Source: a virus
Taxonomy: Duplodnaviria; Heunggongvirae; Uroviricota; Caudoviricetes
Length of the DNA: 5,906 bases
Reading direction: 5' to 3' (one strand)
IMG/VR virus record: IMGVR_UViG_2778261591_000026
Span: 1-5,906 of that record
Shown: positions 1 to 5,906 of the stretch, one piece after another
How the letters are laid out: every line of letters begins with the position of its first letter
How positions within the stretch are numbered: the first letter of the stretch is position 1
Notes under the pieces: generated by a model
Told to the model about the DNA's origin: nothing
The model's input: the letters and a program-made list of their open reading frames with translations, nothing else
The model's database searches: none
Made by a program: the position numbers and the translations under genes

Positions 1-153
1 AGGGTTGATGTTTATCAGGGGCAAAATGGTCAATCAATCACTCTTGAATTACTGAATGCAAAGATTGGATTTGCAGCTTCAGGAAATGGCCCGCAGCAGC
101 AAAGTAGTAACCAGCAGAACACTCCTGTATACGACGATTCCATCCCATTCTGA
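1..153 (+). CDS. 3' end of a gene (5' truncated by window edge); C-terminus resembles single-stranded DNA-binding protein (SSB)
   Basis: Frame 1 is open from position 1 to TGA at 151-153. Translation ends ...GNGPQQQSSNQQNTPVYDDSIPF: a Gly/Gln/Pro-rich low-complexity tail ending in an acidic D-D-x-I-P-F tip, like the canonical SSB C-terminal tip DDDIPF. Not in the ORF track because it has no in-window Met start. Confidence 0.45.
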   Translation, partial: RVDVYQGQNGQSITLELLNAKIGFAASGNGPQQQSSNQQNTPVYDDSIPF

Positions 154-176
154 TTCAGAAAAATAAGGATTTAATC

Positions 177-473
177 ATGCCAGCGCCTCTGTATGGTGCG
201 GATGACCCGCGCCGCTGTTCCGGCAATTCCATATCGGAGGTGCTGGAAAATATCAAGAATAATCTCGACGCGTTTCTTGCTCTGCCACCAGAAACAAAAG
301 AAGAACGGAAGTACCGACGCGATATACAACTCGCAGAAAAACAGGAAAAAGACCGAATAAACGAAACATCAATCCGACCATTCCGCAAAGCCACATATAC
401 CCACTTCCCTGAATATATCGACCCGCGCCTGCGTAATTACCGCTCACGCTATGGCGCTATCAGTAATGACTGA
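177..473 (+). CDS. Hypothetical phage protein, 98 aa
   Basis: ORF track entry; ATG at 177 preceded by AAGGA at 165-169; same strand and tight spacing with neighbours. No recognised family. Confidence 0.55.
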   Translation: MPAPLYGADDPRRCSGNSISEVLENIKNNLDAFLALPPETKEERKYRRDIQLAEKQEKDRINETSIRPFRKATYTHFPEYIDPRLRNYRSRYGAISND

Positions 474-483
474 GGAATTTACC

Positions 484-774
484 ATGAAAACAATGAAGCT
501 AAACATCGACCTCGGAAAATACGTTATTACCGGAACCAAACACGACCTGATTCTTAGTGAAAGAGGAATTATCAAAGAAGGCGAGAATGCAGGGAAAGAA
601 ACACTAAGCCGTATCGGTTATTACAGCAAGTTTGAGCATCTGGTTAAAGAATTATGCAACCGTGAAATCATGTTATCTCAGGCGCAGACGCTACAGGATA
701 TTCAGCAACATATCGAGAATTTAGGTGTGTCACTTAGCATGGCTATTGACCAGTTCGTGGAGAGTAAATCATGA
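484..774 (+). CDS. Hypothetical phage protein, 96 aa (an in-frame longer form could start at 451)
   Basis: ORF track gives 451..774. ATG at 484 is preceded by GAGGA at 473-477 with 6-nt spacing and begins right after the upstream stop (471-473), so 484 is the preferred start. Stop TGA 772-774 overlaps the next ATG (ATGA). Confidence 0.6.
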
Positions 775-938
775 GAGGACTTGCATACAATCCCGGCATT
801 CTTCCAGCAGAAATGATTATTCGCCAACGCGTAAAGCCAATGCCATCGAGAGAGGAATTGCTTAAGAGAAATTCTTTTCCTTCAGTGAATCAAAACAAAT
901 ATCTGAATGCGATGTGGCGTAAAGGAGGCAAGCAGTGA
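771..938 (+). CDS. Small hypothetical protein, 55 aa ([55 protein letters not shown]), absent from the ORF track
   Basis: ATG at 771 overlaps the upstream stop (ATGA); its stop TGA 936-938 overlaps the GTG start at 935 (GTGA). It exactly fills the gap in an otherwise coupled operon. GGAGAG lies at 759-764. Confidence 0.4.
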
Positions 939-1393
939 GCGAAATTAACTATAAAGAACTGCGCGAGGCGGCGAAACAGGCAACGCAAGATGAATGGGTA
1001 GCATATATTTTGCCGGGCCATAACGGCATTTATCCTGCGCGCACGTCTGAGGGTAGGCATTGCGGATACTTTATTGACTGGCCTGGTACTGATGGACAGA
1101 GGAACGCTAGTGCCAATGCCCGTTATATCGCGGCTATCCCACCAAAAGTTGCGCTGGACCTCCTAGGCGAAATTAAGCGCCTGGAGGACAAAAATATTGA
1201 TGCCATGTGCCAAATTGCAGAGCTGGAGAGCAATCGCGCGGCGCTGGCGGCGGAGCATGGTATTCAGATTGCAATAAATGAACTGCTTGCTCTGGCCCCG
1301 CGTCTGGATAAACGAGCGGTGGATGCACTCTCTGTGGCTGTGGAGCACCTGTGTAAACTGATTAAGAAGGAGGCAGTCAGTGAGCAAAATTAA
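935..1393 (+). CDS. Ead/Ea22-like phage protein, 152 aa (paralog 1)
   Basis: GTG start at 935 with AAAGGAGG at 921-928. N-terminus [17 protein letters not shown]... resembles the N-terminal region I recall for lambda Ea22 and Ead-family proteins. Shares N-terminal and central motifs with the next ORF. Confidence 0.75.
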
Positions 1394-2054
1394 TTACCAG
1401 GCACTGCGTGAGGCGGCAGAGAAAGCAACGTGGGGAGACTGGGACTCATATAAACCACACCGTGGCGCACGTGGTTATGAGGTCCGACTAAGTAGTCAGG
1501 CCATTGCGCAACACGTCCTGAAAAACAACGCTGAATTTATTGCTGCCTTTAATCCAAAGATTGCTTTGGCACTACTGGATGAACGGGAAAGAAACCAGCA
1601 ATACATCAAACGCCGCGACCAGGAGAACGAGGATATTGCGCTAACGGTAGGGAAGCTGCGTGTTGAGCTGGAAGGCAAAGACAGCAAAATAGCCAATCTT
1701 ACCGCCGAACGCGATGCTCTTCGTGAAGGTGAGATGGGCGACGCTAGGCATAGCAACACACGGGCCGCAGCTGATATCTACTTCCAACTGGTCGAGGAGT
1801 GCGAAATTCCTGCTGGCCGTTCTCTGGTCGAGTACGTTGACGATATGCGCGAGAAGCTGGAAGCCGCAGAGAAGCGCATTGCTGAGCTGGAGTTGCGGGA
1901 GGTTGTGCTTCCGCAATGCTATAGCATGTTGCATCGCGTCGATTTTGACGAGCCTTACCACACTGAAATGGTTTACAGGCAGCATCAGGTTCTTGAGGCA
2001 CTGCACAACGCTGGAATAAACGTCACCGAAGCAGGTAAAGGAGAGGCATCATGA
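1380..2054 (+). CDS. Ead/Ea22-like phage protein, 224 aa (paralog 2), coiled-coil-rich middle and divergent C-terminal half
   Basis: GTG start at 1380 with AAGGAGG at 1366-1372. N-terminus [17 protein letters not shown]... and motif PKIALALLDERERNQQYIKRRDQENEDIALTVGKLRVELE resemble lambda Ea22 as I recall it. Stop TGA 2052-2054 overlaps next ATG 2051 (ATGA). Confidence 0.75.
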   Translation: MSKINYQALREAAEKATWGDWDSYKPHRGARGYEVRLSSQAIAQHVLKNNAEFIAAFNPKIALALLDERERNQQYIKRRDQENEDIALTVGKLRVELEGKDSKIANLTAERDALREGEMGDARHSNTRAAADIYFQLVEECEIPAGRSLVEYVDDMREKLEAAEKRIAELELREVVLPQCYSMLHRVDFDEPYHTEMVYRQHQVLEALHNAGINVTEAGKGEAS

Positions 2055-2578
2055 GCACTATCACAAGAGAATGGCTGCAGCAGACTATCAACGATTATGA
2101 AAGCGTTCGTGATGAGCTTCCTTTCGGGCTTGATGATTACCAGGGGAATATCCTGGCTGCCCTGCGTATCGCACTGGCATCGCTGGAAGCAGAGCCGGTG
2201 GCGTGGAAGGTAACATTCACGCAAATTGACCGTGAATATAACACGTTCACTGGTATGTATTCTGACAAAGCAGAAGTCGAACGGTGGGTGCGTCTGCATA
2301 AAGCATGTAATTTTCGGGCAGATATAACACCGCTTTATACCGCCAAGCCAGTGCCGGTAACTCCGGATGGTTGGATAAGCTGTAGTGAGCGAATGCCGGA
2401 AATTAGACAAACAGTTATTGGATGGAATGGATATGCAGTTAGACAATGCGTATATACAAGGAATGAATATGCCAAGACACAGAAAGGCAGAGAGCCAAGG
2501 TTTGAAACCTTAACTGGTATATGGCATGGAGTAACCCACTGGATGCCGCTACCAGAACCGCCGCAGGAGGTGAAGTGA
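2051..2578 (+). CDS. Phage protein with DUF551-like C-terminal region, 175 aa
   Basis: ATG 2051 preceded by GGAGAGG. C-terminal segment ...PDGWISCSERMPE...GW...THWMPLPEPP matches my recollection of the DUF551 signature common in lambdoid prophage accessory regions. Stop 2576-2578 overlaps next ATG 2578. Confidence 0.75.
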   Translation: MSTITREWLQQTINDYESVRDELPFGLDDYQGNILAALRIALASLEAEPVAWKVTFTQIDREYNTFTGMYSDKAEVERWVRLHKACNFRADITPLYTAKPVPVTPDGWISCSERMPEIRQTVIGWNGYAVRQCVYTRNEYAKTQKGREPRFETLTGIWHGVTHWMPLPEPPQEVK

Positions 2579-2856
2579 TGGACTCCTTCGCGAAATATAC
2601 GATTATTGACTGGATAGCCTTCCTTCAGGTTTTGCTCATCTGGTTTTATATGGCTTACAGGAGTGGACAGTGGATTGTCAGTGTAGCCTGTAGCAAGGGA
2701 TGGCGTTGGTGGAACCGGAAGAATAAAAAAGCACTGGCATTGGATTCGTTTTACGAAGCATTCAATCTTAACAGCCTTCAACCTGGTTCTGTCATTGTAG
2801 TCACCACTCAAAGCGGCATGACCATTCAGATTCATAAACCAAAAGAGGAAAAATGA
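2578..2856 (+). CDS. Small predicted membrane protein, 92 aa (the ORF track's 2521 start is an in-frame extension inside the upstream gene)
   Basis: ATG 2578 with GGAGG at 2566-2570 (7-nt spacing), coupled to the upstream stop. Translation has one strongly hydrophobic segment (IIDWIAFLQVLLIWFYMAY) followed by a basic patch (KGWRWWNRKNKK) and a roughly 45-aa tail. No recognised family. Confidence 0.55.
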   Translation: MDSFAKYTIIDWIAFLQVLLIWFYMAYRSGQWIVSVACSKGWRWWNRKNKKALALDSFYEAFNLNSLQPGSVIVVTTQSGMTIQIHKPKEEK

Positions 2857-2942
2857 TGTGGCCTATATGTGTTAATTGCGGACGGATGTGCCTATCTGGA
2901 TGGTGCCGAAAGTGCGACAAATGCACGAAGCAAAGACAATAA
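2853..2942 (+). CDS. Candidate Cys-rich micro-protein, 29 aa (MMWPICVNCGRMCLSGWCRKCDKCTKQRQ), possible zinc-ribbon-like peptide
   Basis: ATG 2853 overlaps the upstream stop 2854-2856 (ATGA); purine-rich AGAGGA at 2844-2849. Six Cys in 29 residues arranged CxxC-x3-C-x4-CxxCxxC. Too short for the ORF track; coding status unproven. Confidence 0.3.
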   Translation: MMWPICVNCGRMCLSGWCRKCDKCTKQRQ

Positions 2943-2976
2943 CAATCCTCGCACTCGCGGGGATTTCTTTTATCTG

Positions 2977-3002
2977 AACTCGCTACGGCGAGTTTTGTTT
3001 TA
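2977..3002 (+). terminator. Candidate hairpin plus U-rich tract (weak intrinsic terminator or RNA structural element)
   Basis: AACTCGC (2977-2983) pairs with GCGAGTT (2988-2994) around a 4-nt loop TACG, followed by TTGTTTTA. Lies in the 72-bp non-coding gap before the 55-aa ORF. Confidence 0.25.
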
Positions 3003-3014
3003 TGGAGATGATAA

Positions 3015-3182
3015 ATGCACTTCCGAGTCACAGGCGAATGGAATGGAGAGCCATTCAACAGAGTTATCGAAGCAGAGGACATCAATGACTGCTATAACCA
3101 CTGGATGATATGGGCGCAGATAGCAAATGCAGACATAACCAATATTCGAATTGAAGAACTGAAAGAACACCAAACCGCCTGA
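3015..3182 (+). CDS. Small hypothetical phage protein, 55 aa (MHFRVTGEWNGEPFNRVIEAEDINDCYNHWMIWAQIANADITNIRIEELKEHQTA); same position as the small ORF preceding xis in lambda
   Basis: ATG 3015 preceded by GGAGA at 3004-3008 (6-nt spacing); clean translation. Prefer this over the overlapping track ORF 2869..3108, which has no RBS and runs across the 2977-3002 hairpin. Confidence 0.55.
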   Translation: MHFRVTGEWNGEPFNRVIEAEDINDCYNHWMIWAQIANADITNIRIEELKEHQTA

Positions 3183-3196
3183 TGGCGGTTTTTTCT
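3173..3196 (+). terminator. Candidate rho-independent terminator directly after the 55-aa ORF
   Basis: AACCGCC (3173-3179) pairs with GGCGGTT (3184-3190), a 7-bp stem with 5 GC pairs and loop TGAT, followed by TTTTTCTT. The ORF stop codon sits in the loop. Confidence 0.4.
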
Positions 3197-3235
3197 TGCG
3201 AGTAATTGCGGAGACTTTGCGATGTACTTGACACT
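3196..3235 (+). promoter_or_regulatory. Probable cII-activated pI-type promoter for int (cII half-sites TTGC-N6-TTGC at 3196-3209), overlapping the xis start
   Basis: TTGC at 3196-3199 and 3206-3209 separated by 6 nt, the spacing of cII sites in lambda pRE/pI/paQ. Location at the 5' end of xis matches the known position of lambda pI. Confidence 0.5.
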
Positions 3236-3440
3236 TCAGGAGTGGAACGCACGCCAGCGACGTCCAAGAAGCCTTGAAACAGTTCGTCGATGGGTGCGCG
3301 AATGCAGGATATTCCCTCCTCCGGTTAAGGATGGAAGAGAGTATCTGTTCCACGAATCAGCGGTAAAGGTTGACTTAAATCGACCAGTAACAGGTAGCCT
3401 TTTGAAGAGGATCAGAAATGGGAAGAAGGCGAAGTCATGA
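3222..3440 (+). CDS. xis: Excisionase Xis, 72 aa, lambda type
   Basis: Translation MYLTLQEWNARQRRPRSLETVRRWVRECRIFPPPVKDGREYLFHESAVKVDLNRP... is recognisable as lambda Xis. Overlaps int by 23 nt as in lambda. Confidence 0.95.
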   Translation: MYLTLQEWNARQRRPRSLETVRRWVRECRIFPPPVKDGREYLFHESAVKVDLNRPVTGSLLKRIRNGKKAKS

Positions 3441-4488
3441 GCGCCGGGATTTACCCCCTAACCTTTATATAAGAAACAATGGATATTACTGCTACAGGGA
3501 CCCAAGGACGGGTAAAGAGTTTGGATTAGGCCGAGACAGGAGGATAGCAATCACTGAAGCAATACAGGCCAACATTGAGTTATTTTCAGGACACAAACAC
3601 AAGCCTCTGACAGCGAGAATCAACAGTGATAATTCTGTTACGTTACATTCATGGCTTGATCGCTACGAAAAAATACTCGCCAGCAGAGGAATCAAGCAGA
3701 AGACACTCATAAATTACATGAGCAAAATTAAAGCAATAAGGAGGGGTCTGCCTGATGCTCCAATTGAAGACATCACCACAAAAGAAATTGCGGCAATGCT
3801 CAATGGATACATAGACGAGGGCAAGGCGGCGTCAGCCAAGTTAATCAGATCAACACTGAGCGATGCATTCCGAGAGGCAATAGCTGAAGGCCATATAACA
3901 ACAAACCCGGTCGCTGCCACTCGCGCAGCAAAATCAGAGGTAAGGAGATCAAGACTTACGGCTGACGAATACCTGAAAATTTATCAAGCAGCAGAATCAT
4001 CACCATGTTGGCTCAGACTTGCAATGGAACTGGCTGTTGTTACCGGGCAGCGAGTTGGTGATTTATGCGAAATGAAGTGGTCTGATATCGTAGATGGATA
4101 TCTTTATGTCGAGCAAAGCAAAACAGGCGTAAAAATTGCCATCCCTACAACATTGCATGTTGATGCTCTCGGGATATCAATGAAGGAAACACTTGATAAA
4201 TGCAAAGAGATTCTTGGCGGAGAAACCATAATTGCATCTACTCGTCGTGAACCGCTTTCATCCGGAACAGTATCAAGGTATTTTATGCGCGCACGAAAAG
4301 CATCAGGTCTTTCCTTCGAAGGGGATCCGCCTACCTTTCACGAGTTGCGCAGTTTGTCTGCAAGACTCTATGAGAAGCAGATAAGCGATAAATTTGCTCA
4401 ACATCTTCTCGGGCATAAGTCGGACACCATGGCATCACAGTATCGTGATGACAGAGGCAGGGAGTGGGACAAAATTGAAATCAAATAA
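3418..4488 (+). CDS. int: Tyrosine site-specific integrase Int, 356 aa, lambda type
   Basis: Translation MGRRRSHERRDLPPNLYIRNNGYYCYRDPRTGKEFGLGRD... ending ...HLLGHKSDTMASQYRDDRGREWDKIEIK is recognisable as lambda Int. HxxR motif (HELR) present and the catalytic Tyr codon TAT is at 4441-4443 (residue 342). Confidence 0.97.
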   Translation: MGRRRSHERRDLPPNLYIRNNGYYCYRDPRTGKEFGLGRDRRIAITEAIQANIELFSGHKHKPLTARINSDNSVTLHSWLDRYEKILASRGIKQKTLINYMSKIKAIRRGLPDAPIEDITTKEIAAMLNGYIDEGKAASAKLIRSTLSDAFREAIAEGHITTNPVAATRAAKSEVRRSRLTADEYLKIYQAAESSPCWLRLAMELAVVTGQRVGDLCEMKWSDIVDGYLYVEQSKTGVKIAIPTTLHVDALGISMKETLDKCKEILGGETIIASTRREPLSSGTVSRYFMRARKASGLSFEGDPPTFHELRSLSARLYEKQISDKFAQHLLGHKSDTMASQYRDDRGREWDKIEIK

Positions 4489-4561
4489 TGATTTTATTTT
4501 GACTGATAGTGACCTGTTCGTTGCAACAAATTGATAAGCAATGCTTTTTTATAATGCCAAC
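4485..4561. other. attP P' arm: Int arm-type sites P'1-P'3 (about 4485-4513, reverse-complement orientation) and IHF H' site (about 4524-4536)
   Basis: Sequence caaataatgattttattttgactgatagtgacctgttcgttgcaacaaattgataagcaatgc is the reverse complement of the lambda P' arm as I recall it. It contains ATAGTGAC arm-type motifs and caacaaattgata, the reverse complement of an IHF-consensus-like TATCAATTTGTTG. Confidence 0.8.
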
Positions 4562-4576
4562 TTAGTATAAAAAAGC
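4562..4576. other. att core (common core O) of the prophage/host junction, attL (B-O-P') read on the opposite strand
   Basis: TTAGTATAAAAAAGC is the reverse complement of the lambda core GCTTTTTTATACTAA. Left flank (ccaac) continues as P' arm; right flank (aggcttcaacgg) continues as host attB arm. Confidence 0.9.
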
Positions 4577-4622
4577 AGGCTTCAACGGATTCATTTTTCT
4601 ATTTCATAGCCCGGAGCAACCT

Positions 4623-5906
4623 GTGAACACATTTTCAGTTTCCCGTCTGGCGCTGGCATTGGCTTTTGGCGTGACGCTGACCGCCTGTAGCTCAACCCCG
4701 CCCGATCAACGTCCTTCTGATCAAACCGCGCCTGGTACCTCTTCTCGCCCGATTCTGTCGGCAAAAGAAGCGCAGAATTTCGATGCTCAACACTATTTTG
4801 CATCCCTGACACCAGGTGCTGCAGCGTGGAATCCTTCCCCGATTACCCTGCCTGCGCAACCTGACTTTGTTGTCGGCCCGGCGGGCACTCAAGGTGTAAC
4901 GCATACCACGATTCAGGCGGCGGTAGATGCGGCAATTATCAAGCGTACCAACAAGCGCCAGTATATTGCCGTGATGCCTGGTGAGTATCAGGGAACGGTA
5001 TATGTCCCTGCCGCTCCGGGTGGAATTACTCTGTACGGTACAGGTGAAAAACCGATTGATGTGAAGATTGGGCTTTCCCTTGATGGTGGCATGAGCCCTG
5101 CCGACTGGCGTCACGACGTCAACCCGCGCGGCAAATATATGCCAGGTAAACCAGCGTGGTATATGTACGATAGCTGCCAGAGCAAACGCAGCGACAGTAT
5201 CGGTGTTCTCTGCTCTGCGGTCTTCTGGTCACAAAACAATGGCCTGCAACTGCAAAATCTGACCATCGAAAACACGCTGGGCGATAGCGTAGATGCAGGT
5301 AACCATCCGGCGGTGGCACTGCGTACTGATGGTGACCAGGTACAGATTAACAACGTTAACATTCTCGGTCGTCAGAACACCTTCTTTGTCACCAACAGCG
5401 GTGTGCAGAACCGTCTGGAAACGAATCGTCAGCCGCGTACGCTGGTGACCAACAGCTACATTGAAGGGGATGTGGATATCGTTTCTGGTCGCGGCGCAGT
5501 GGTGTTCGATAACACCGAATTCCGCGTGGTGAACTCACGTACTCAGCAAGAAGCGTATGTGTTTGCACCGGCTACGCTGTCCAACATTTACTACGGTTTC
5601 CTCGCCGTAAACAGCCGTTTCAATGCTTTCGGTGATGGTGTGGCGCAACTGGGCCGCTCGCTGGATGTTGATGCCAATACCAACGGTCAGGTGGTGATCC
5701 GTGATAGCGCCATCAACGAAGGTTTTAACACGGCTAAACCGTGGGCCGATGCGGTGATCTCTAATCGTCCGTTTGCGGGTAATACCGGCAGCGTAAATGA
5801 TAACGACGAAATACAGCGCAATCTGAATGACACTAACTACAACCGCATGTGGGAATACAATAACCGCGGCGTGGGTAGTAAAGTGGTTGCAGAGGCGAAG
5901 AAGTAA
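4623..5906 (+). CDS. ybhC: Host outer-membrane lipoprotein YbhC, 427 aa (pectinesterase-like, carbohydrate esterase family 8 fold)
   Basis: GTG start at 4623 with GGAG at 4612-4615. Signal peptide with lipobox L-T-A-C (Cys22). Sequence recognisable as E. coli YbhC, the gene next to attB-lambda. Stop TAA at 5904-5906 is the last codon in the window. Confidence 0.93.
   Translation: MNTFSVSRLALALAFGVTLTACSSTPPDQRPSDQTAPGTSSRPILSAKEAQNFDAQHYFASLTPGAAAWNPSPITLPAQPDFVVGPAGTQGVTHTTIQAAVDAAIIKRTNKRQYIAVMPGEYQGTVYVPAAPGGITLYGTGEKPIDVKIGLSLDGGMSPADWRHDVNPRGKYMPGKPAWYMYDSCQSKRSDSIGVLCSAVFWSQNNGLQLQNLTIENTLGDSVDAGNHPAVALRTDGDQVQINNVNILGRQNTFFVTNSGVQNRLETNRQPRTLVTNSYIEGDVDIVSGRGAVVFDNTEFRVVNSRTQQEAYVFAPATLSNIYYGFLAVNSRFNAFGDGVAQLGRSLDVDANTNGQVVIRDSAINEGFNTAKPWADAVISNRPFAGNTGSVNDNDEIQRNLNDTNYNRMWEYNNRGVGSKVVAEAKK

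What the first reader, a model, noticed from the sequence alone, without database searches (positions are those of the whole stretch)
771..938. Unlisted 55-codon ORF that closes a gap in the coupled operon
Absent from the supplied ORF track, but its ATG overlaps the upstream stop and its stop overlaps the downstream GTG start. The 160-bp interval would otherwise be the only gap between coupled genes. The product is basic and has no recognisable domain.
Basis: seen in the sequence. Interest (0 to 1): 0.35.

Follow-up and report, generated by a model that had tools for sequence, protein, structure and literature searches.

The report
Known small phage gene (DUF2737) beside abc2
The 55-codon ORF is a real, conserved small phage gene that is already catalogued (Pfam DUF2737; identical to Shigella phage Sf6 gene 23), so the finding is correct but ordinary; its function is unknown, and it almost always sits just after the anti-RecBCD gene abc2.

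Summary
The ORF at 771..938 (+) exists as described. Its ATG overlaps the upstream stop (ATGA), its stop overlaps the downstream GTG start (GTGA), a GGAG lies 8 nt upstream, and the product has pI 11. It is a genuine gene. All 102 related loci keep an intact 51-61 codon frame. Twenty-one distinct DNA variants encode the identical protein, and median dN/dS is 0.19.

The product is a full-length member of Pfam DUF2737 (109 bits against a cutoff of 25) and PHROG 1117. It is 100% identical to Sf6 gene 23 and orthologous to P22 orf56, HK620 hkaI and HK022 gp38. NCBI's annotation pipeline names it routinely. It was "unlisted" only because 55 aa falls below the usual 60-aa ORF cutoff.

No function is recorded. 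One new observation is that DUF2737 always lies distal to abc2 in temperate phages: 80 of 80 loci sampled on Abc2 alone carry it, and phage-record counts are 224 versus 221. The gene downstream of it is mosaic. It also occurs without abc2 in virulent Guernseyvirinae. A resemblance to the LexA helix-turn-helix was tested and not confirmed.

Verdict: already known and low interest.

The parts
771..938 (+). DUF2737 family CDS (55 aa plus stop); 100% identical to Sf6 gene 23 protein; ortholog of P22 orf56, HK620 hkaI and HK022_38
   Evidence: ORF; Pfam PF10930, 109 bits; PHROG 1117; identity to Sf6 gp23; intact in 102 of 102 loci; dN/dS about 0.19
759..764 (+). Shine-Dalgarno-like GGAGAG, 8 nt (from GGAG) upstream of the ATG, inside the 3' end of the upstream gene
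   Evidence: Read from the sequence
771..774 (+). ATGA stop/start overlap with the upstream DUF5405-like gene (translational coupling junction)
   Evidence: The same 4-nt overlap is seen in 28 related loci
837..908 (+). Conserved core, residues 23-46 (P-x-P-[ST]-REELL-x-RNSF-x-[SG]-[VP]-[ND]-x-N-[KR]-[YHF]-L-N); predicted helix-loop-helix (helix 27-33, and helix 43-52, which runs past the core)
   Evidence: Alignments; pN/pS 0.14; AF2 secondary structure. This is the only part retained in virulent Guernseyvirinae
922..928 (+). AAGGAGG Shine-Dalgarno for the downstream Ead/Ea22 gene, embedded in codons K51-G52-G53 of DUF2737
   Evidence: Read from the sequence. The tail (codons 47-55) shows relaxed pN/pS of 0.37
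935..938 (+). GTGA start/stop overlap with the downstream Ead/Ea22-like gene; also the mosaic junction where nucleotide homology to Sf6 ends
   Evidence: The Sf6 megablast block ends at window position 939. Downstream neighbours fall into at least 8 unrelated families
177..473 (+). abc2 (anti-RecBCD protein 2), the invariably linked upstream module partner
   Evidence: Pfam PF11043, E=3.5e-44; linkage data
484..774 (+). DUF5405-like gene (PHROG 154; Sf6 gene 24 homolog), a module inserted between abc2 and DUF2737 in a minority of phages
   Evidence: Insertion pattern: 22 of 101 and 7 of 80 loci. It starts at the RBS+ATG that in P22-type loci starts DUF2737
935..1393 (+). Downstream Ead/Ea22-like gene whose GTG start overlaps the DUF2737 stop
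   Evidence: Pfam PF13935, E=2e-17; junction

Best explanation
SHOWN. The interval encodes a genuine 55-residue basic protein of the known family DUF2737 (PF10930, PHROG 1117). It is identical to Sf6 gene 23 and orthologous to P22 orf56, HK620 hkaI and HK022 gp38. It lies in the early-left arm of a lambdoid prophage integrated next to ybhC, in the order abc2, DUF5405, DUF2737, Ead/Ea22 x2, DUF551, DUF4752, orf55, xis, int. It has its own GGAG and 4-nt stop/start overlaps on both sides, and it is under purifying selection along its whole length. In temperate phages it is the fixed distal neighbour of abc2.

INFERRED (expression). It is made from the long early-left (PL-type) transcript during lytic development or induction, by ribosomes coupling from the upstream gene or using its own SD. 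It is not expressed in the repressed lysogen.

INFERRED (mechanism; probability about 0.4 for the autonomous-binder part). It works as a small stoichiometric binder. A variable N-terminus and basic tail flank a rigidly conserved helix-loop-helix core ([10 protein letters not shown]...N-K-Y-L). That core docks onto a conserved enterobacterial host or phage macromolecule, giving an accessory host-takeover function useful in lytic growth. Because it always ends the erf/abc1/abc2 module, its target most plausibly lies in DNA recombination, repair or RecBCD-related processes (about 0.3). Because it also occurs in virulent phages without abc2, it should be able to act without Abc2.
For: Identity and family:
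- Pfam 109.2 bits against a cutoff of 25, full length; PHROG 1117.
- 100% aa identity to Sf6 gp23.
- PGAP name 'DUF2737 family protein' for clusters with hundreds of members.

A real gene:
- 102 of 102 loci are intact.
- 21 nucleotide variants encode the identical protein, with up to 7 synonymous and 0 non-synonymous differences.
- Against P22, dN is 0.255 and dS is 1.355. Median dN/dS over 865 pairs is 0.19.
- pN/pS is 0.21 (codons 1-22), 0.14 (core) and 0.37 (tail). No other frame is open in more than 6 of 61 related sequences.
- No Rfam family matches the window.

Operon and coupling:
- Junction table.
- Promoter-like sites number 1 against 7.0 expected.

Linkage to abc2:
- abc2 or abc2+DUF5405 lies upstream in 84 of 101 DUF2737-selected loci.
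- 80 of 80 Abc2-selected loci carry DUF2737, 73 of them at a fixed 10-nt spacer.
- Phage records: abc2 224 full-length against DUF2737 221 full-length, with matching per-group tallies.
- The same order occurs in P22, HK022, an Stx2 phage and a divergent prophage in which Abc2 is recognisable only by profile.

Autonomy: the gene is present in Jerseyvirus, Kagunavirus and Serratia Eta within runs of small genes, with no abc2 among the genes shown in those stretches.

Shape: helices 27-33 and 43-52 are predicted in both AF2 runs.
Against: - No direct evidence of translation was available here (no ribosome profiling or proteomics).
- No functional study was found under any of the gene's names.
- AF2 confidence is low (pLDDT 63-68, pTM about 0.25). 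Foldseek finds nothing in the PDB or BFVD, so the 'binder with helix-loop-helix core' picture rests on sequence conservation alone.
- Linkage to abc2 may be inherited synteny rather than functional coupling. The samples are dominated by closely related E. coli and Salmonella prophages and are not phylogenetically independent.
- Abc2 binds and modifies RecBCD without this protein in published reconstitutions (PMC9836394).
Confidence: 0.85

Rival explanations
1. DUF2737 is a functional component of the Abc2-type anti-RecBCD/recombination module (in effect an 'Abc3'). It would act together with Abc2, for example by stabilising it, modulating the RecBCD-Abc2 complex, or targeting a second host repair or SOS factor.
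For: - abc2 to DUF2737 adjacency is complete in temperate phages: 80 of 80 Abc2-selected loci, and 224 versus 221 phage records with matching group tallies.
- The adjacency holds across Lederbergvirus, Hendrixvirinae and Sepvirinae and in a divergent pair.
- The downstream side is highly mosaic while the abc2 side is retained.
- Abc2 and DUF2737 differ in divergence between the same two phages (Abc2 74.5% against DUF2737 100% for the window versus Sf6), so exchange occurs nearby yet the pairing persists.
- Authors could not purify Abc2 alone, and the roles of Abc1 and Arf in this module are still unknown (PMC9836394).
Against: - DUF2737 occurs in several hundred virulent Guernseyvirinae records and in Serratia Eta with no abc2 among the genes shown around it.
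- A DUF5405 gene can be inserted between the two.
- Abc2 works on RecBCD without it in vitro.
- Homologous recombination between syntenic modules preserves gene order without any selection.
Confidence: 0.3
2. DUF2737 is a minimal, wingless LexA-like helix-turn-helix, possibly derived from a gamma-proteobacterial LexA DNA-binding domain. It would bind DNA (for example SOS-box-like operators) or interfere with LexA.
For: - The core aligns with LexA helix 2-turn-helix 3. hhalign gives probability 77.8% (P=1.9e-5, 43% identity over 30 columns) with alignment A1, and 64.7% (score 25.7) with the diverse alignment A3.
- None of 250 shuffles (max 21.3) or 450 real phage segments (max 19.2) reaches that score.
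- The match is in the same register against P. aeruginosa LexA.
- Predicted helices 27-33 and 43-52 coincide with LexA helices 2 and 3.
- The protein is basic.
Against: - The lead came from a 177,635-sequence search at E=0.69 and vanishes with the more diverse profile.
- hhalign P multiplied by the database size exceeds 1.
- No Pfam LexA_DNA_bind hit appears for any of 30 members, even at E<=10.
- The match drops to 27.5% against P. aeruginosa and 1.6% (in a different register) against T. maritima LexA, and it falls rather than rises against a LexA family profile.
- Foldseek finds no HTH hits.
- The protein ends where the LexA wing would begin.
Confidence: 0.07
3. The ORF is a chance open frame, and the conservation reflects a non-coding role of the interval. 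Such roles would include a spacer carrying the downstream gene's ribosome-binding site, an RNA element, or an antisense or alternative-frame gene.
For: - The window has 69 ORFs of 30 aa or more, so short ORFs are common.
- The 3' end does carry the AAGGAGG SD of the next gene.
Against: - Substitutions are concentrated at synonymous sites (dN/dS 0.19; 21 silent variants), and the frame is intact in 102 of 102 loci.
- The protein core is conserved at 40-57% aa identity with saturated dS in unrelated genomic contexts that have different neighbours.
- No other frame is open in more than 6 of 61 related sequences.
- No Rfam match.
- Strong Pfam and PHROG profile matches.
Confidence: 0.01

Closest known systems
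Pfam DUF2737 (PF10930) / PHROG 1117: Sf6 gene 23, P22 orf56 (NP_059593), HK620 hkaI, HK022_38, Jerseyvirus SE2 gp24
   Same: Full-length profile match. The product is 100% identical to Sf6 gp23 and 77% identical to P22 orf56. Size (51-61 aa), conserved core, and position in a run of coupled small early genes are the same.
   Different: Nothing substantive; this is a member. The only local variation is the DUF5405 gene inserted between abc2 and DUF2737 (as in Sf6), where P22, HK022 and Stx phages have a 10-13 nt spacer.
P22 recombination/anti-RecBCD module (erf, arf, abc1, abc2)
   Same: DUF2737 is co-transcribed with the module and is always its distal neighbour. Like Arf and Abc1, it is a small accessory protein with no known molecular role.
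   Different: It has not been reported as part of the module. It has no demonstrated effect on recombination or RecBCD. It also occurs in phages lacking abc2.
LexA N-terminal DNA-binding domain (PF01726; PDB 1lea)
   Same: There is local resemblance of the core to helix 2-turn-helix 3 of gamma-proteobacterial LexA, about 41-43% identity over 27-30 residues.
   Different: The match is not significant database-wide. It is lost against divergent LexA proteins and the Pfam model. There is no wing and no catalytic domain, and no structural support.
Other small early-left accessory proteins of lambdoid phages (Kil, CIII, Gam, Ea8.5-type 'ea' genes)
   Same: Small, non-structural, PL-operon encoded and translationally coupled; probably dispensable in the laboratory. 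They act, where known, by binding a host protein (general knowledge of lambdoid phages; context).
   Different: There is no sequence or structural similarity to any of them. No target is known.

Membership tests
Pfam DUF2737 (PF10930) | Score above the curated gathering threshold of the family HMM | tested here: met
   109.2 bits against a cutoff of 25, E=8.8e-32. All 30 diverse relatives also match.
Pfam DUF2737 (PF10930) | Full-length coverage of the ~53-position model by a ~50-60 aa protein | tested here: met
   Residues 1-51 match model positions 1-51 of 53. Family members are 51-61 aa.
Pfam DUF2737 (PF10930) | Conserved core residues (R27, E29, R33, N34, S35, F36, N42, L45) | tested here: met
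   All are present in the window protein. They are invariant or at least 90% conserved in alignments A1 and A3.
PHROG 1117 | Significant full-length profile match | tested here: met
   E=1.3e-37, positions 1-54 of 54. The category is 'unknown function'.
Translationally coupled protein-coding gene | Start overlaps the upstream stop, stop overlaps the downstream start, SD at proper spacing | tested here: met
   ATGA at 771-774, GTGA at 935-938, GGAG 8 nt upstream.
Translationally coupled protein-coding gene | Purifying selection on the reading frame in homologous loci | tested here: met
   102 of 102 loci intact; dN/dS median 0.19; pN/pS 0.14-0.37 in all three segments.
Translationally coupled protein-coding gene | Direct evidence of translation (ribosome footprints, peptides) | not testable with these tools
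   No expression data are accessible here. The literature searches found none.
Abc2-type anti-RecBCD / Rec module | Conserved genomic association with abc2 | tested here: met
   80 of 80 Abc2-selected loci; 224 versus 221 phage records; P22, HK022, Stx2 phage and a divergent prophage.
Abc2-type anti-RecBCD / Rec module | Association is obligatory (never found without abc2) | tested here: not met
   The gene is present in Jerseyvirus, Kagunavirus and Serratia Eta with no abc2 among the genes annotated in the surrounding 2.5-kb flanks.
Abc2-type anti-RecBCD / Rec module | Contributes to RecBCD modulation or recombination, or binds Abc2/RecBCD | not testable with these tools
   This needs genetics or biochemistry. 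Published RecBCD-Abc2 work does not include this protein.
LexA-type winged HTH (PF01726) | Significant match to the family profile | tested here: not met
   No PF01726 hit for any of 30 members at E<=10. The PDB profile search gives E=0.69 with A1 and no hit with A3.
LexA-type winged HTH (PF01726) | Similarity persists or strengthens against divergent members and a family profile | tested here: not met
   Probabilities are 64.7% (E. coli), 27.5% (P. aeruginosa) and 1.6% in a different register (T. maritima). Against a 3-sequence profile the score falls from 25.7 to 23.7.
LexA-type winged HTH (PF01726) | Three-helix bundle plus beta wing fold | tested here: inconclusive
   AF2 gives pLDDT 63-68 and predicts helices 27-33 and 43-52 but no confident tertiary fold. 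The protein ends before any wing. Foldseek against the PDB returns 0 hits.
Known anti-phage defence or anti-defence catalogues | Match to a PADLOC model | tested here: not met
   No PADLOC hit at E<=0.1. No NCBIfam hit.

The most novel reading that the evidence does not exclude
DUF2737 is an overlooked working part of the Abc2-type RecBCD-hijacking module. It would be a 55-residue basic protein, perhaps descended from the helix-turn-helix of a gamma-proteobacterial LexA. It would act on the host DNA-damage or recombination response alongside Abc2, for example by stabilising Abc2, or by damping SOS or another RecBCD-linked alarm. The evidence that does not exclude this is the complete abc2 to DUF2737 linkage in temperate phages and the unconfirmed LexA-like core.
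Probability: 0.15. Interest if true: 0.5.

Novelty: already known. Interest (0 to 1): 0.12.

Why it matters
As a gene call it matters little. The ORF has been annotated in phage genomes since the early 2000s, has its own Pfam and PHROG families, and is named automatically by PGAP. The practical lesson is that a 60-aa ORF cutoff hides real, conserved phage genes. A second 55-aa example lies in this same window at 3015..3182.

The one point with some value is the abc2 to DUF2737 association quantified here. Neither of the two recent papers on Abc2 and the lambdoid Rec module that were read mentions it. It gives an inexpensive, testable lead for a widespread family of unknown function (601 clusters at 90% identity; Stx, P22-like and HK022-like phages, and virulent Salmonella and E. 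coli siphoviruses used in biocontrol).

Tried and rejected
1. Chance ORF or non-coding spacer. Rejected on intactness, dN/dS and distant protein-level homologs.

2. RNA element. Rfam gives no match in the window.

3. Alternative-frame or antisense gene. No other frame is open in more than 6 of 61 related sequences.

4. LexA-like HTH.
- Pursued through hhalign, shuffle and real-protein nulls, divergent LexA proteins, a Pfam permissive scan, AF2 and Foldseek.
- It is better than local nulls. It is not significant database-wide, and it decays with LexA divergence.
- Kept only as a low-probability lead.

5. Structure-based annotation.
- Two AF2 runs (22 and 30 sequences) gave pLDDT 63 and 68.
- Foldseek against the PDB gave 0 hits. 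BFVD gave 3 hits, all at E>4.
- Uninformative.

6. Sequence search against the PDB: nothing significant.

7. NCBIfam and PADLOC: no hits.

8. Domain fusions as functional hints. The longer proteins in the hit lists are start-codon over-extensions into the abc2 overlap frame, frameshift read-throughs or deletion chimeras, not real architectures.

9. Neighbours in abc2-less phages: all PHROGs of unknown function.

10. Literature: 'DUF2737' appears in one paper, in passing. 'hkaI' with HK620 returns none. 'orf56', 'P22' and 'abc2' return nothing functional.

11. My first impression that Stx-phage records 'miss' the gene was withdrawn. The Stx2 record inspected has only 2 features in all.

12. One local hhalign batch hung on stdin and was rerun.

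Full report
**The window**

The 5.9-kb window is the early-left arm and attachment end of a lambdoid prophage. It reads on the + strand as follows (Pfam; translations; junctions):
- abc2, anti-RecBCD protein 2 (177..473)
- a DUF5405-like gene (484..774)
- the ORF in question (771..938)
- two Ead/Ea22-like genes (935..1393 and 1380..2054)
- DUF551 (2051..2578)
- DUF4752 (probable start at 2578, ends 2856)
- a 55-aa ORF (3015..3182)
- lambda-type xis (3222..3440) and int (3418..4488)
- the chromosomal gene ybhC (4623 onward)

E. coli chromosomes carry the same int-ybhC arrangement.

**Checking the observation**

- The ORF is 168 nt (55 codons plus TGA).
- Its ATG shares ATGA with the upstream stop, and its TGA shares GTGA with the downstream GTG start.
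- GGAG sits 8 nt upstream of the ATG.
- The product has pI 11.0.
- The AAGGAGG ribosome-binding site of the downstream gene is written in codons K51-G52-G53.
- From 484 to 2856, all other junctions overlap by 1-14 nt, so without this ORF there would be a single 160-nt hole in that run.

Two qualifications apply.
- There is a 10-nt spacer after abc2.
- A separate 158-nt gap lies at 2857-3014 and contains two tandem terminator-like hairpins.

The ORF is listed as soon as the length cutoff is lowered. The default cutoff is 60 aa, which explains why it was "unlisted".

**Is it a gene?**

I gathered 101 related loci: Sf6, P22, a Jerseyvirus, a Kagunavirus, Serratia phage Eta, 80 IMG/VR contigs and 15 bacterial genome contigs.
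- With the window, all 102 carry an intact 51-61 codon frame with no frameshift or internal stop.
- Among 75 distinct nucleotide sequences, 21 encode exactly the window's protein while differing at up to 7 synonymous sites and no non-synonymous site.
- Against P22 orf56, dN is 0.255 and dS is 1.355.
- Median pairwise dN/dS over 865 informative pairs is 0.19. These pairs are not independent.
- Pooled pN/pS is 0.21 for codons 1-22, 0.14 for the core (23-46) and 0.37 for the tail, so the annotated ATG is the start.
- No other frame is open in more than 6 of 61 related sequences, and Rfam finds nothing in the window.

The non-coding and chance-ORF readings are rejected.

**What it is**

- The product is a full-length member of Pfam DUF2737 (PF10930; 109.2 bits against a cutoff of 25) and of PHROG 1117.
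- It is 100% identical to the Sf6 gene 23 protein. That protein was annotated in the original Sf6 record as "similar to phage HK620 gene HKaI protein" and is named "DUF2737 family protein" in RefSeq.
- It is 77% identical to P22 orf56 and 96% identical to HK022_38.
- PGAP names it routinely. Clusters at 90% identity hold up to 829 member sequences in E. coli, Salmonella and E. albertii.
- tblastn finds it in 702 phage records. There are 601 clusters at 90% identity but only 60 at 50% identity among 1.84 billion representatives.

The family is therefore abundant but narrow, confined to phages of Enterobacterales. NCBIfam, PADLOC and the PDB sequence set hold nothing for it. The held literature has no functional statement.

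**Anatomy of the family**

Alignment of 30 diverse members shows three parts:
- a variable N-terminus
- a rigid core, P-x-P-[ST]-R-E-E-L-[LM]-x-R-N-S-F-x-[SG]-[VP]-[ND]-x-N-[KR]-[YHF]-L
- a short basic tail

Only the core is retained in virulent Guernseyvirinae. Two AlphaFold2 runs agree on helices at 27-33 and 43-52, but confidence is low (pLDDT 63 and 68, pTM about 0.25). Foldseek finds no neighbour in the PDB and only noise in BFVD.

**Context and linkage**

In temperate phages the gene is always the distal neighbour of abc2.
- Among the DUF2737-selected loci, the upstream gene is abc2 in 62 of 101. In 22 it is the DUF5405 gene, which follows abc2 in the two such loci I examined (this window and Sf6).
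- The downstream gene falls into at least 8 unrelated families.
- The nucleotide homology block shared with Sf6 ends at window position 939, one base past the DUF2737 stop codon.
- HK022 (Hendrixvirinae) reads erf, abc1-like, abc2, DUF2737, Ea22-like.
- An Stx2 phage (Sepvirinae) has abc2, then DUF2737 13 nt later.
- A prophage with only 54% DUF2737 identity still has a profile-recognisable Abc2 upstream.
- In the phage collection, abc2 is full-length in 224 records and DUF2737 in 221. Group tallies match: Stx2a 51/51, Stx1a 15/15, Stx2c 2/2.
- In the reverse test, which is not selected on DUF2737, 80 of 80 IMG/VR loci chosen by Abc2 similarity (81-100% identity) carry DUF2737 downstream. In 73 it follows a fixed 10-nt spacer, and in 7 DUF5405 lies between.

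Where DUF5405 is present it starts at the same GAGGAATTTACC-ATG that starts DUF2737 in P22-type loci. It therefore looks like a module inserted exactly at the gene boundary.

Against an obligatory partnership, DUF2737 also lies in runs of small coupled genes of unknown function in Jerseyvirus and Kagunavirus. In Serratia Eta it lies at the end of a kil-containing operon. No abc2 is seen among the genes shown in those stretches.

The two Abc2/Rec-module papers I read list erf, arf, abc1 and abc2 and do not mention this gene (PMC9836394 and PMC12315714).

**A lead that did not hold**

A profile search of the PDB sequences gave a non-significant hit (E=0.69) to the LexA DNA-binding domain. The core aligns with LexA helix 2-turn-helix 3.
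- hhalign probability is 77.8% with A1 and 64.7% (score 25.7) with A3.
- No shuffle (250, max 21.3) or real phage segment (450, max 19.2) reaches that score.

However:
- The hit disappears with the more diverse profile.
- No member touches Pfam LexA_DNA_bind even at E<=10.
- Against real divergent LexA domains taken from PDB alignments, the match decays: P. aeruginosa 27.5% in the same register, T. maritima 1.6% in another register.
- It falls rather than rises against a LexA profile.

This is what chance would give, or at most a derivation from a gamma-proteobacterial LexA. I keep it at about 7%.

**How it most likely works**

- Shown: it is a real, conserved, coupled small gene in a promoter-poor array (1 promoter-like site against 7.0 expected), positioned after the erf/abc module.
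- Inferred from established lambdoid and P22 biology: it is expressed from the early-left transcript during lytic growth or induction, not in the lysogen.
- Inferred from anatomy: it is a stoichiometric binder whose conserved helix-loop-helix core recognises a conserved enterobacterial or phage macromolecule.
- Its occurrence in virulent phages argues that it can act on its own.
- Its fixed place after abc2 makes DNA recombination, repair or RecBCD-related processes the most plausible target area.

I put about 0.4 on the autonomous-binder picture, about 0.3 on a working link to the Abc2 module, and about 0.07 on a LexA-like DNA binder. All three await experiment.

**Verdict**

Its absence from the ORF track is a length-cutoff artefact. 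Novelty: already known. Interest: low (0.12). The quantified abc2 to DUF2737 linkage is a small, testable by-product.

Noticed in passing
window 3015..3182 (+): A second 55-aa ORF falls below the 60-aa cutoff. It is a full-length PHROG 676 member (E=1.3e-37) and 96% identical to HK022_33, which is annotated 'undocumented homolog present in lambda'. It has no Pfam family. It is probably another real small gene missing from the ORF track.
   Followed up: partly
window 2521..2856 (+), probable start at 2578: The longest-ORF call for the DUF4752 gene starts at 2521 and overlaps DUF551 by 58 nt. The Pfam match begins at residue 27, and an ATG at 2578 shares one base with the DUF551 stop (TGATG), preceded by GGAGG. 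The true start is probably 2578.
   Followed up: partly
window 2857..3014 and 3172..3191: The 158-nt gap after DUF4752 holds two tandem terminator-like hairpins on the + strand (2944-2965 and 2976-2995). A bidirectional hairpin overlaps the end of the 3015..3182 ORF. These are possibly PL-operon terminators that are read through under antitermination.
   Followed up: no
window 474..486, compared with L003 (P22) 2491..2503: The DUF5405 gene starts at the same GAGGAATTTACC-ATG ribosome-binding site that starts DUF2737 in P22-type loci. This looks like a module inserted precisely at a gene boundary. It is present in 22 of 101 and 7 of 80 sampled loci.
   Followed up: partly
window 440..939 versus Sf6 (L001 1501..2000): The 96.4% nucleotide homology with Sf6 begins inside the 3' end of abc2 and stops one base past the DUF2737 stop codon. 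Abc2 itself is only 74.5% identical between the two. These are sharp mosaic junctions on both sides of the DUF5405-DUF2737 pair.
   Followed up: partly
protein P0120 (96 aa, a 744-base ENA contig): The N-terminus of a lambda N-type antiterminator (Pfam PF11438) is joined in frame to DUF2737 residues 17-55. It is a single-contig oddity, probably a prophage deletion from N to DUF2737 or an assembly chimera.
   Followed up: no
proteins P0001, P0003, P0136: Singleton DUF2737 variants carry in-frame internal tandem duplications of 12-15 residues around the PMPSR/REEL segment.
   Followed up: no
loci L094 and L096: Enterobacterial-type DUF2737 loci occur in assemblies labelled Chryseobacterium sp. 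18061 (L094, where Abc2 lies directly upstream) and 'MAG: Actinomycetes bacterium' (L096). Contamination or mislabelling is likely.
   Followed up: no
window 1..4700: Sigma-70 promoter-like sites are depleted on both strands of the prophage arm (1 found against 7.0 +/- 2.5 in shuffles). This is consistent with one long early-left transcript.
   Followed up: no
L102 (HK022) 2001..2165: In the HK022 GenBank record, the DUF2737 CDS carries a later protein accession series (AUM59813) than its neighbours abc2 and Ea22-like (AAF30380, AAF30379). This suggests it was missed in the first annotation and added on re-annotation.
   Followed up: no
window 484..774; RefSeq Sf6p24: RefSeq and PHROG 154 label the DUF5405-like gene 'replication initiation protein'. 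The original Sf6 note says only 'similar to phage P2 gene Orf83'. The functional name looks weakly founded.
   Followed up: no
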